Source: Octopus vulgaris
Taxonomy: Eukaryota
Length of the DNA stretch: 64,000 bases
Direction of reading: 5' to 3'
Assembly (NCBI GenBank): GCA_951406725.2
Contig: OX597817.1
Coordinates: forward strand, 149,544,001 to 149,608,000
The notes under the pieces were generated by a model. That model did no database searches. It was not told the origin of the DNA and saw only the letters and a list, made by a program, of their open reading frames with translations. The translations under genes and the position numbers were made by a program. Positions 30,397-35,143 of this stretch are shown here, piece after piece (position 1 is the first letter of the stretch; each line of letters opens with the position of its first letter).

Positions 30397-30454
<58 letters not shown>

Positions 30455-30475
30455 CTAAGTTGTGTTTTATGTTGT

Positions 30476-31637
30476 TCAGTGGTAACAATGTGGGTAGTTC
30501 TTGTATGGAGCTGTGTGTGTATCATTTTCTTGTTGGTAGTGGGTGTGTGGTCTTTGTGATTTGCATAGGTGGTTGCTGATAGCTCGTTGGATCTCCTGGC
30601 TTAGGTCGGCCTTCATATTTTCTAGGTAAGACAGTAAAAAAGAGTTACCTCTTTGGTTTTCCACTTGGTTAGAGGATACATATTTCATGTTGGTGTTATT
30701 TGGTGTTATGGTTTTTTCATGGTTCTGTCTACGTTGTTTGATTGTAGGAGGGGAAACGTGGTTGTGTTTTGTTCTTGTTGTTGTCGTAGATTTCCTCTGT
30801 TGCTGTTTATATTTATTCTGTGATCGTTTTGTGCCCTTCAGATGGTTGTGTTGCATTCTGGGTTCAGGCACATCCTTAGAGAGACAGAAGTTTTGCACAG
30901 TTTAGGATGGAAGAAGGTGCATGCATTGCCTTTTGTTCATCCATATTTGGGATCAGGACCATGGACTCTGTATTTAGGACAGTATTTGGGGTGGAGGTGA
31001 GGGCAGTTTTTCCCGTTATACCATATGGACAGGTGCCCTTAACAAGTCTACGACATAAGGTAGGATGGAAAAAAGCACAGCGTCCATTGTTGTTGGTGCT
31101 GCTGGGGCCAAATCTACAGTTACCTTGAGAATAGTAACGGCAGGGTGTTTTATGTGGGTATAGTAGTGGTTTTCCTATTCTGGCTGTAATAGCAGTAGCA
31201 GAGCGTTGTTGTTGTTGTTGCTGTAGCAGCAGTGAAACTTGACTTGGAATCGGGTCAGGTACTGAAGCAGGCTGTTGTTGTTTTTGTGATAGTGAGTTGT
31301 TGAGTGGAATGGGCGGAATTAGGTCAGATGTTTGTTGCTGGCTATCGGGTCGTTGAAGTGACCCCTGACCTGTTGGAGTTGGGTCATTTGGTGCACTACG
31401 TTCATTGACAAGGATGGCTTCTAGAGTTACCATGTACGTGTGTAAAATAGGAAATATTCTAACAATTTCTTTTATTTTATTTTCGATCTGTTTTACAGAT
31501 CTGTGAAAGGATTGTTTTGCTAATTTTTCAGCTATTTTACTGTAAACATTAGCTTCATTGTGGTGAGTGTACCAAGCATTTATCATTGCAGTGATTTCAT
31601 TTTCAACCCAGTGGCGTTTCTGAATATTATTGGCCAT
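30476..31637 (-). pseudogene. LINE ORF1: N-terminal Myb/SANT-like (trihelix-type) domain, Q/P linker, four CCCH zinc fingers
   Basis: WVENEITAMINAW...VYSKIAEKLAKQSFHRSVKQIENKIKEI; fingers CRYYSQGNC..CAFFHP, CRRLVKGTC..NCPHLHP, CPKY..G*TKGNACTFFHP, CKTS..MCLNPEC.HNHLKGTKR; frameshifts at about 31009 and 30850; TGA at 30937-30939. Confidence 0.8.
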
Positions 31638-32039
31638 ATTCAGTGGGGCAGACTTGATGTATAATAGTGAATACACCGTTGTAAAGTTTGTGTCGATATA
31701 TTCGGAAATCTGAGTGTGTGTGGGAGAGTTCAGTGTATTTTGTACAAATCAGGATGAGCGGTGAGTTTAATACAGATCAAGGAAGAGGAATTGTACTCAC
31801 GGGACTAGTTTTAGAACTAGTCTTGGGTTTAGTTTTGGTTTATATTTCCTTCTCCAGGTTGTATATAGATTTGTTTAAATTTATCCTCCGATGGGAGTAG
31901 AAGAGTAGAATAGTAGAATTGAAGAATTCAAAAGTACTGGGACTAAAAACAATGAGAGTTTCTGCTGGCTTGAGTTGAAATATGCTTCTTTGGCTACTGA
32001 CTTTCACCGGAGCTATGAAAAGTACGTCTTGTCACGACG

Positions 32040-35026
32040 AAAACACAACTTAGAACAAGGCAAACATCAAACTCCCCTTACTTCGACATTCCTGTTAAAT
32101 GTACGTGACATCAACCCATCAATTATTGCCCAAAAATGGAAGATCCCATATATAGAGAGTTGGCTTGCCGAAACGGCACATTGCTTCCCTTTCTTTATCC
32201 TTACCGAGACTCACCTGAACAACACCCATATGGACGCAGAGGTGAAAATAAAAGATTTCACCATTGTTCGTGCGGATCGCACAGACCGAAATAATGGAGG
32301 GACAGCCATCTTTATCCATGACTCCTTTTCACTTGATGCCAAGGACATATTTTCCAATGGCTATTGTGAATCTGTATCACTATTAAGCAAGGCCAAGGAC
32401 ATAATCATTGTTGGTCTTTACAGGCCTCTCCAAGCACCTCTAAAGTGCTTTGAAGAGTGCCTTAGTAAAGTCAAGTTCTTCCTTCGGAAGTACAACTCCG
32501 GAAACATACTAGTGATGGGTGATTTTAACCTCCCTCATGTGAACTGGCCCACAAATACTCTGAAGTTAGGCAAATACTCTATATCAGATAGAGCAGCAGC
32601 AGAACTGCTCTTTAATCTAATGGATGAATACTTCCTGACTCAGCTAGTGCTCGAACCAACGAGACAGAATAAAACGATCTTGGATCTGGTATTGACCAAT
32701 CACTCTAGCTTCGTTCACAGTATTTCAGTTGAAAAAACTCTCCTCTCAGACCACGACATGATACTCTGCAATATCAATTCCCGACATATAAAAACCAAAC
32801 CAGCCAATCCCACTCCATGGCACTCATTTGACAACATAAACTTCCACAAAGCGGACTGGGGAGCAATCAGAGAGGATCTGTCTTGCATCGACTGGTCTTT
32901 TACTCTCAATTCCACCCATACTGAGACCGCATGGCAGCACTTTGAAAACATTGTCACCTATACATGCTCTAAACACGCTCCCACGAAATCTACTAACACA
33001 AACAGAAACCGGCTCCCTAAAAAGAAAACAATACTCATCAGGCGCATCAAAAGACTCAACAAAAAAAATCAACCAATTAAAATATTCCCACATACAACAT
33101 CCAAATTCAACAACAATGAAAAGGCTAGAGCTGGAAAAACTTCATCTACAGAACGACATGAAAACCTCCATTGAAAATCAAAGAGCTGTGGAGGAACAGT
33201 GGGTAATCAAAAACATCAAACAGAACCCAAAAGTGTTCTATTCTTATGCAAATAAGCATAGAACCACTGTCTCACCCATTGGGTCATTGATTGATGATAA
33301 CGGCATTCCCCAACACGATGCTAAAGAAATGGCAGAAATACTGCAGAAACAATACTGCTCTGTCTTTAGTGTTCCCACTGATATTGACACAAGAGAAGCG
33401 AACGAAGTTGACTCTCAACATAAAATCTCAGACATAACCTTCACTGCCATTGACATCACAGCAGCAATAAATGAGGTCAAATACTACTCTGCTGTAGGCC
33501 CTGATAGATTCCCCGCTAGTCTCCTGAAGGAATGTAGACACCAACTTGCAGTCTCTCTGACCAACTTCTGGAAAAATTCGTTAGACGCAGGTTATATACC
33601 GAAACAGTTTCTATCCCAGTTAGTCATTCCGGTTTTCAAACAGGGAAACAGATCCCTCGCACTCAACTATCCCCCAATCTCACTCACCTCCCACATCATC
33701 AAAGTGTTTGAAAGAGTGTTAAGATCAAGGATAGCTGACTTCCTGGAGACCCACAAACTCCTAAATGCAAATCAGCATGGCTTTCGCTGTGGCAGGGACT
33801 GTCTAACACAGCTCTTACACCACATTGAAGATGTACTCAAAGCCTTGGGAACAGGTTCGAACTCTGATGTCATATATCTTGACTTCAGTAAAGCGTTCGA
33901 CAGGGTAGACCATAATATCCTACTCTCAAAATTGGCAAATGTTGGAATCCGCGTAAAAGTTCTACACTGGATCAAGTATTTCCTGGCGAATAGAACACAA
34001 CATGTTGTGATTGATGGAGTCCACTCAAGCCCAGCAAAAGTCACCAGTTGTGTCCCCCAGGGGACTGTCTTGGGCCTGCTACTCTTCATAATTTACATAA
34101 ATGACCTTTCCAGTGTCGTACATTACTGCAAAGTGAAAATATTTGCTGATGACACTAAGCTCCAGCAAATCGTCAATGAAGAAGCAGACCGAACTCAACT
34201 CCAGTCTTATCTATATGCTGTGAGTCAATGGGCAGACAGAAACAAAATGCAACTGAACGAGGGAAAATTTGAGCTGATGCATTTTGGAAGAAATTCCTCA
34301 CTAAAACAGCCATACTCTCTTCCTTCAGGGGAACCGCTCACAGCCCCTAACAATATCAGAGACATGGGTGTAATTGTTGACGACGATCTCAGTTGGAGTG
34401 CACACATCAACAAGAAGGTCGATATAGCTCGTAGGATGAGTTCCTGGGTCTTAAGAACTTTCCGGTCCAGAGAACAAGGTGTCATCATACCACTTTTCTC
34501 CTCCTTTGTACGGCCACACCTCGAATACTGCTGCCCACTGTGGTCTCCCCATACAAGACAAAACATCTCGAGAATTGAATCACCCCAGAGAGCACTCACT
34601 AAACGAATTGAAGGCATGGCTGCTCTCGATTATTGGGATCGCCTTAAAGCCTTGAAACTCTACTCTCTCCAGCGTCGCCGTGAGCGGTACATCATTTGTA
34701 CGATGTGGAGAATATACCGCCAACTTAGCCCAAACGACCTGAACATTAGCTTCAAGGTTCATCCAAGACTGGGACCACGTGCCATACGTCCCCTGTCCAA
34801 TTCAAGATCACAGCATACATGTACACTACAACATAATTTCTTTTCCTCAACAGGCCCTGCCCTATTTAACATTGTCTCGAAAGAGGTCAAAGAGGAACAG
34901 GATCCCATCAACTTTAAACGGAGTCTGGATAGATTCCTTCAAGGAATACCATATAAGCCACCCATAATTGGATACAACTCACCCAACAAAAACTCACTAC
35001 TTGAATGGACCATAAACAAAACTTGA
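32040..35026 (+). pseudogene. LINE ORF2: apurinic endonuclease plus reverse transcriptase (one frameshift in the A8 run at 33061-33068)
   Basis: APE motifs ILTETHL, GGTAIFI, YRP, MGDFN, LDLVL, SDH; RT motifs QHGF, YLDFSKAFD, VPQGTVLG, FADDTK, RPHLEYC. Confidence 0.95.
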
Positions 35027-35143
35027 CTTAAACAGGATTCAAATAATCCTATCAGGTGGTGCTATTAAGTTAGACATGGCCTGGACCAATCATTGGTCGA
35101 AACATGTCTATGTTTATCTAAGTTTATCTTTATATACACATAT

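What the first reader, a model, noticed from the sequence alone, without database searches (positions are those of the whole stretch)
30450..35130. Apparently full-length CR1/L2-group LINE with its 5'UTR and ORF1 flipped (twin-priming signature)
Seen: ORF1 runs on the minus strand (31637 to 30476) and ORF2 on the plus strand (32040 to 35026). The 19-mer AAAACACAACTTAGAACAA at 32040-32058 recurs as its reverse complement at 30450-30468, directly against the flanking (TA)n. Re-inverting 30450-32039 gives a colinear 5'UTR-ORF1-ORF2-tail element, with the 5' end (TCGTGACAAGACGTACTTTT) at the junction. Established: twin priming gives this geometry in mammalian L1. Inference: the same mechanism acted on an invertebrate CR1/L2-type LINE and captured the complete 5' end. 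The internal promoter would now point away from ORF2 and into the flanking DNA.
Basis: partly seen in the sequence, partly recalled or inferred. Interest (0 to 1): 0.72.

Follow-up and report, generated by a model that had tools for sequence, protein, structure and literature searches.

The report
Front-flipped CR1 retrotransposon in TA repeat
One dead copy of a CR1-type jumping gene sits in a TA repeat with its whole front third turned backwards while its relatives run straight, likely because both cut DNA ends copied the same RNA during insertion, a route known almost only from mammalian L1.

Summary
Geometry confirmed. The copy is element positions 8-1626 inverted, then 1608-4703 forward (19-nt overlap, 2-nt junction microhomology). 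19 of 19 other near-full copies are colinear, so the flip is private to this copy, not a native bidirectional element. Both halves are equally old (0.75% and 0.84% private alleles) and share one sister copy. Corrections: the first 7 nt are lost; the break cuts inside ORF2, whose likely AUG (30566, minus) was flipped away; both ORFs are frameshifted. Only 1 of 141 other 5' junctions starts with an inverted internal piece, against 18-30% for human L1. Twin priming at insertion is the best reading (0.75). Post-insertion repair remains possible (0.15): other copies carry rearrangements of other shapes. Reads did not test the junction; the outward-promoter idea is untested. The scan noted twin-primed CR1 and RTE copies before in other genomes, and two-armed Penelope-type insertions in this one. 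A known mechanism in a new clade; one dead copy.

The parts
30377..30449 (+). Left copy of the likely target-site duplication: ATACAC, (AT)8, ACATACATAC, (AT)20, A; its length at insertion is unknown because AT tracts change length
30450..32041 (-). Inverted 5' part, element positions 8-1626: 5' UTR (about 404 nt), ORF1, first 39 codons of ORF2
30450..30468 (-). First copy of the 19-nt overlap; likely start of the second (top-strand-primed) cDNA; 1-nt microhomology with the TA flank
30476..31637 (-). ORF1, Myb/SANT-like domain plus CCCH fingers below Pfam cut-off, frameshifted; about 430 aa and open in copy L081
30450..30566 (-). Likely N-terminus of ORF2 (AUG at 30566), overlapping the end of ORF1, cut off from the rest of ORF2 and holding a stop
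32040..32041 (.). Inversion junction: 2-nt microhomology joins element position 8 head-to-head with position 1608; first 7 nt of the element absent
32040..35125 (+). Forward part, element positions 1608-4703: APE endonuclease and RT (frameshifted, no start codon, no promoter), 3' UTR
35030..35131 (+). 3' UTR with predicted stem-loops and the ATCTAAGTTT repeat tail (two units and a partial third)
   Evidence: fold of the same stretch of L046, z -3.6
35134..35301 (+). Right copy of the likely target-site duplication, interrupted in its first AT tract by the inverted ORF2 piece
35143..35237 (-). Inverted copy of ORF2 positions 33872-33966 (88 nt plus 1-nt and 6-nt microhomologies), 2 differences from the copy's own ORF2

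Best explanation
This is one dead copy of a TA-seeking CR1-clade LINE whose front 1.6 kb lies inverted, likely because both strands of one staggered cut in a TA microsatellite primed reverse transcription on a single full-length RNA (twin priming). Steps, inferred unless marked: (1) the endonuclease nicked the two strands at least about 35 nt apart in the compound TA repeat (duplication shown; its original length inferred); (2) the bottom strand primed on the repeat tail and copied to position 1608 (extent shown); (3) the long top-strand overhang primed at position 1626 and copied to the RNA's 5' end (extent shown); with only 1 nt of pairing this may have been a jump onto an RNA end left about 19 nt behind the stalled first enzyme, not annealing; (4) the two cDNA ends joined through 2 nt of microhomology with loss of 7 nt (shown); (5) while the top strand was filled in across the right-hand duplication it switched briefly to ORF2 sequence (displaced RNA or its own new strand) and returned through ATATAT, leaving the 95-nt inverted piece. 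ORF2 lost its promoter and start codon, so the copy could not have moved again.
For: 19 of 19 other copies with the whole 5' part are colinear. Head-to-head join with no flank DNA in it; the inverted arm ends 7 nt from the RNA's natural end. The 19-nt overlap is near the human germline L1 range (42% overlap, median 12, quartiles 4-17; PMC12016303). Same age: 12 private alleles in 1590 columns and 26 in 3088, against 51 loci. Same source: L046 is sister to both halves, 100/100 and 97/91. Duplication signature on both sides: 0 of 93 other 3' flanks begin with ATACACATAT, 0 of 93 hold the full motif, and 4 of 800 long AT arrays carry it, two being this locus's own (motif chosen after seeing it). 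A long overhang is what PMC4245944 proposes twin priming needs. The third piece and the own ORF2 share a minority allele (16 of 140 rows) and each differs by one change from a shared ancestral state. L069 shows a second TA-primed inverted piece at a 5' end.
Against: Only 1 nt of microhomology at the flank junction, where about 70% of inverted L1 show 2-5 nt (PMC2912911). The layout is rare in the family: 1 of 141 other 5' junctions, and that one has TA filler at its inner junction. Inversions of other shapes occur in sister copies (L053, L082/L242, L247), so DNA-level rearrangement does happen here. The empty site was not seen and TA tract lengths drift, so the duplication's ends are uncertain. 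The zebrafish L2-clade element ZfL2-1 made no 5' inversions in cells.
Confidence: 0.75

Rival explanations
1. A normal full-length insertion was inverted afterwards by DNA repair or replication template switching: one break at the fragile TA/element boundary, a staggered one at 1608-1626; the 95-nt piece is a templated insertion at the other TA tract.
For: Sister copies hold inversions that are not twin-priming shaped: L053 (42-nt inversion with deletion and 9-nt duplication), L082 (fold-back), L247 (tail-to-tail join). The 95-nt piece has a 6-nt microhomology that suits DNA-templated repair. Self-annealing of 3' overhangs makes short inverted duplications at L1 sites (bioRxiv 2024.12.14.628481).
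Against: One breakpoint must fall within 7 nt of the 5' end of a 4.7-kb element and carry no TA with it; the left duplication copy still abuts the element; the 95-nt piece lacks a change that the own ORF2 has, so it dates to about the time of insertion (one site, weak).
Confidence: 0.15
2. The inversion is an assembly error in a repeat-rich region.
For: No read or contig row was shown across 30449/30450 or 32039/32040; both ends lie in TA arrays.
Against: A 19-nt overlap, a 7-nt loss, 2-nt microhomology, a matched compound repeat and a third piece with its own substitution are unlike a mis-join or a missed-adapter fold-back (inference); halves are equally diverged and share a sister.
Confidence: 0.05
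3. Two independent insertions met head to head in one TA array and a deletion trimmed one of them.
For: Neighbouring opposite-facing copies exist in TA arrays (L206, L241, L247).
Against: The inverted part would have to lose its 3' two thirds exactly 19 nt past the other's start; no TA lies between the parts; both parts have one sister copy and one age.
Confidence: 0.03
4. A native element with divergent ORF1 and ORF2.
For: None beyond the layout of this copy.
Against: 19 of 19 other copies colinear; no other locus of the 260 held shows this join; ORF2's likely AUG is cut off.
Confidence: 0.01

Closest known systems
5'-inverted (twin-primed) human L1 insertions (Ostertag and Kazazian 2001, not held; seen as described in PMC2912911, PMC4245944, PMC12016303)
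   Same: Inverted internally primed arm next to the 5' flank, forward tail-primed arm, short overlap, junction microhomology, target duplication.
   Different: CR1 clade, repeat tail instead of poly(A), TA microsatellite target, duplication probably over 35 bp, inverted arm reaching the RNA's 5' end, 1-nt pairing at the second priming site, an extra inverted piece inside the right duplication, and about 1% of sampled 5' ends against 18-30%.
Non-L1 LINE inserts in cultured cells: Nimb-2_DR and ZfL2-1 (PMC4245944, passages and one section read)
   Same: Non-L1 elements can give a 5' inversion rarely (one Nimb-2_DR insert).
   Different: ZfL2-1 (5-bp duplications) gave none; the authors ascribe this to a short overhang. 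This copy has a long duplication, as that model predicts.
Short inversions and inverted duplications at L1-cut ends (bioRxiv 2024.12.14.628481, passages and one section opening read)
   Same: Self-annealing of a 3' overhang would give the 95-nt inverted piece.
   Different: Described for human cells and flanking genomic DNA; here the piece is element sequence inside the duplication.
CR1-clade LINEs
   Same: APE plus RT ORF2 with no RNase H or zinc knuckle found, repeat tail with stem-loops, about 40% RT identity to wood-stork RT proteins.
   Different: ORF1 is Myb/SANT plus CCCH fingers; strong association with TA arrays (79 of 141 5' junctions). That bird LINE proteins are CR1 is recalled, not from a call.

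Membership tests
Twin-primed 5'-inverted LINE insertion | Inverted arm at the 5' flank joined head to head with a forward tail-bearing arm | tested here: met
Twin-primed 5'-inverted LINE insertion | End of forward arm and start of inverted arm within about 20 nt on the element | tested here: met
   19-nt overlap; human range
Twin-primed 5'-inverted LINE insertion | Microhomology at the inversion junction | tested here: met
   2 nt
Twin-primed 5'-inverted LINE insertion | Target duplication enclosing both arms | tested here: met
   compound repeat on both sides, 0 of 93 other 3' flanks match; ends uncertain, right copy interrupted
Twin-primed 5'-inverted LINE insertion | Microhomology between flank and internal priming site (mostly 2-5 nt in L1) | tested here: inconclusive
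   1 nt only, as chance gives in a TA flank
Twin-primed 5'-inverted LINE insertion | Both arms from one template at one time | tested here: met
Twin-primed 5'-inverted LINE insertion | Empty site with one target unit; nick at the endonuclease's consensus | not testable with these tools
   no related genome is offered; contigs did not show the site
CR1-clade LINE | ORF2 with APE endonuclease and RT, no RNase H or C-terminal zinc knuckle | tested here: met
   Pfam on the 1070-aa open frame of L083
CR1-clade LINE | RT closer to CR1 than to L1 or R2 | tested here: met
   wood-stork RT proteins score about 480-580 bits at about 40% identity; human L1 ORF2p 87 bits, R2 52 or less in another search; CR1 label of the bird proteins is recalled
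CR1-clade LINE | 3' stem-loop and short tandem repeat tail, no poly(A) | tested here: met
CR1-clade LINE | Placement among named CR1, L2, Crack, Daphne and Zenon references in an RT tree | not testable with these tools
   no labelled reference set on hand
Native bidirectional retroelement | Divergent ORFs shared by many copies | tested here: not met

The most novel reading that the evidence does not exclude
A CR1-clade reverse transcriptase in an invertebrate germ line twin-primes when its cut in a TA microsatellite leaves a long overhang, and does it by jumping onto RNA ends with one base of pairing; this single insertion records three primings on one RNA. Twin priming would then depend on overhang length, not on being L1 or on a mammalian host.
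Probability: 0.4. Interest if true: 0.58.

Novelty: new variant of a known kind. Interest (0 to 1): 0.4.

Why it matters
Cell assays found 5' inversions almost only with human L1 in human cells and proposed that a long target overhang is the requirement (PMC4245944). A natural CR1 insertion with a long duplication and a near-complete flipped front fits that prediction in a distant clade and host, and makes it testable by counting inversions against duplication length across the several thousand copies of this family. It also warns annotators that a divergent ORF1/ORF2 layout can be a single-copy accident. The copy itself is dead and no effect on a host gene was found.

Tried and rejected
Mis-assembly test: the listed runs were all contig sets; laying four of them showed no row at either junction (144 joints and most pieces not displayed), so the test is inconclusive. 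No RNA holder listed: no evidence either way on the promoter. A search with the left flank found no second, empty copy of the site in the assembly; the flank is an older dispersed repeat (about 80% identity) that ends in CA/TA microsatellite. A breakpoint hotspot at the ORF1/ORF2 boundary was considered: 5' ends at 1554, 1587, 1592 and 1613 exist, but the search that found them was centred nearby, so it was not counted. A systematic duplication survey of 76 copies with both ends gave a few clear cases (16 nt in L055, 14 nt in L107) but most are pure TA or none, so no length distribution could be drawn. L206 was flagged as inverted at its 5' end but is a second tail-bearing piece 103 nt away in a TA array and was dropped from the count. 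The protein atlas gave no usable hit for ORF1. The bacterial promoter scan does not apply to this host. Pfam on 16 of the 52 long frames of the window found no host gene near the element. Paper searches listed no report of twin priming in an invertebrate CR1; most hits were seen as listings only, and subscription papers on LINE junctions (for example Ichiyanagi and Okada 2008, seen only as a citation) could not be read.

Full report
What is there. The 19-mer and its reverse complement are exact and unique in the window. The minus-strand frames carry a Myb/SANT-like domain and weak CCCH fingers, the plus-strand frames an APE endonuclease and an RT. A search of the own genome (2.8 Gb, 227 contigs) with the inverted part gave 56 matches; all 19 other loci fetched hold the 5' part and ORF2 colinear. 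With the colinear copy L046 as ruler (4703 nt), the window copy is positions 8-1626 inverted, 1608-4703 forward and 3438-3532 inverted. No other locus among the 260 fetched shows this join.

The family. ORF2 is open over 1070 codons in L083 and ORF1 over about 430 in L081. Pfam finds endonuclease and RT only. The best named RT hits are an Argonauta hians protein (60%) and wood-stork proteins (about 40%, 480-580 bits); human L1 ORF2p scores 87 bits in a separate search. With the repeat tail and a structured 3' UTR (z -3.6) this points to the CR1 clade; that bird LINE proteins are CR1 is recalled, and no reference tree could be made. The host is probably an octopod cephalopod (inference); CR1 families are reported as recently active in an octopus (PMC13282606, passages). 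The family favours TA arrays: 79 of 141 other 5' junctions have four or more TA units within 30 nt.

The junctions. Full-length copies start at positions 1-5 (24 of 141); this copy starts at 8, with 2 nt shared between the two arms. At the left flank only one T is shared between the TA array and the element. The break lies inside ORF2: its frame overlaps the end of ORF1 and an in-frame open AUG is kept in 15 of 21 copies scored; here it sits at 30566 on the minus strand. Both ORFs carry frameshifts. The copy cannot move.

One event. The inverted and forward parts have 12 of 1590 and 26 of 3088 private alleles against 51 loci, and L046 is sister to both (100/100 among 19 rows, 97/91 among 18). 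Both flanks carry ATACAC, an AT tract, ACATACATAC and a long AT tract. None of 93 other 3' flanks begins with ATACACATAT or holds the motif before ten AT units (1 of 93 holds a shorter form), and 4 of 800 long AT arrays carry it, two being this locus's own. The motif was chosen after seeing it, so these counts are a guide only. I read it as a target duplication, 73 bp on the left today and at least about 35 bp at insertion. The 95-nt inverted ORF2 piece lies inside the first AT tract of the right copy. It and the own ORF2 share a minority allele (16 of 140 rows, some overlapping) and each differs by one change from the state held by 15 rows, as expected if it was copied when the element landed; this rests on three sites.

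How it likely formed. Twin priming as described for L1 (PMC2912911, passages; PMC12016303, passages and section 8) gives this layout, and overlaps are common in germline L1 (42%, median 12 nt). PMC4245944 (passages and the section on 5' inversion) found inversions only with L1 in human cells, save one Nimb-2_DR insert, none with ZfL2-1, and proposed that a 5-nt overhang is too short. The long duplication here fits that. The 1-nt pairing does not fit the annealing seen in most L1 cases. My inference is a jump onto an RNA end left behind the stalled first enzyme, which would explain both the overlap and the lack of pairing; R2 template jumping is the precedent (mentioned in PMC2718515, passages). 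The third piece, and the inverted piece of L069, also begin at a TA end with one shared T. Self-annealing of the new top strand (bioRxiv 2024.12.14.628481, passages and one section opening; supplements closed) explains the third piece equally well.

Against. The layout is rare: 1 of 141 other 5' junctions (L069, with TA filler at its inner junction), L206 being dropped as a separate tail-bearing piece; the sample is best hits to my queries, not random. Other copies show inversions of other shapes (L053, L082, L247) and many internal deletions, so later repair is a live rival (0.15). It needs a break within 7 nt of the element's start that carries no TA. Reads did not test the junctions, the empty site was not found and no RNA holder was listed, so the outward-promoter idea is open; left of the element lies an older repeat, and no host gene was seen in the 16 of 52 frames scanned.

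Novelty. Eight paper searches listed no invertebrate CR1 case; PMC13174262 and PMC4476161 (passages) treat twin priming for mammalian L1 only; the original paper was not held and subscription papers were not seen. This scan has unchecked notes of twin-primed CR1 and RTE copies in other genomes and of two-armed Penelope-type insertions in TA arrays of this genome. Verdict: real, well explained, a new variant of a known insertion type in a new clade and host; interest 0.4.

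Noticed in passing
L069:1696-1840: Second copy with an inverted piece at its 5' end: TA flank, about 60 nt inverted (positions 664 to about 603), TA filler, then forward from about 627; both pieces share alleles.
   Followed up: partly
L053:3208-3251 (also L034, L125, L148): Full-length copy with an internal 42-nt inversion, an 88-nt deletion and a 9-nt duplication; template-switch-like.
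   Followed up: partly
L082:2346-4712 and L247:681-3036: Tail-less copies: a fold-back (940-3060 forward, 3187-2943 inverted) and a tail-to-tail join of two subfamilies between TA flanks.
   Followed up: partly
L241:1645-2861; L206:1501-1958; L196: Opposite-facing copies sharing one TA array (tail to tail 22 nt apart; head to head 103 nt apart): TA arrays are re-used targets, or both strands primed on tails.
   Followed up: partly
L142:2277-2372: A 96-nt piece (positions 3453-3548) sits in the same direction in front of a copy starting at 3358; it covers nearly the same ORF2 stretch as the window's 95-nt piece.
   Followed up: no
L089-L095, L099: One tail-less or shared-junction piece starting at position 2904 recurs with the same flank on several contigs, so it was amplified inside a larger repeat.
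   Followed up: no
L046-L084: About a dozen of 39 long copies have internal deletions of 60-1000 nt.
   Followed up: no
window 35345-35503: 76-nt inverted repeat with a 7-nt loop just right of the element, very high contig depth: probably a hairpin-shaped repeat family.
   Followed up: no
window 29000-30360: Left flank is an older dispersed repeat of about 1.3 kb (80-85% to L176-L180) that ends in CA/TA microsatellite, the tract that was targeted.
   Followed up: partly
window 27711-28169 (+) and 45475-45999 (-): Frames with weak zf-RVT matches: fragments of other LINE clades.
   Followed up: no
window 36033-36400: Two copies of a 184-nt unit (85%), SINE-like by appearance.
   Followed up: no
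L046:6998-5353; L006:56-1368: Older relatives of this LINE (65-69% identity) lie next to young copies.
   Followed up: no
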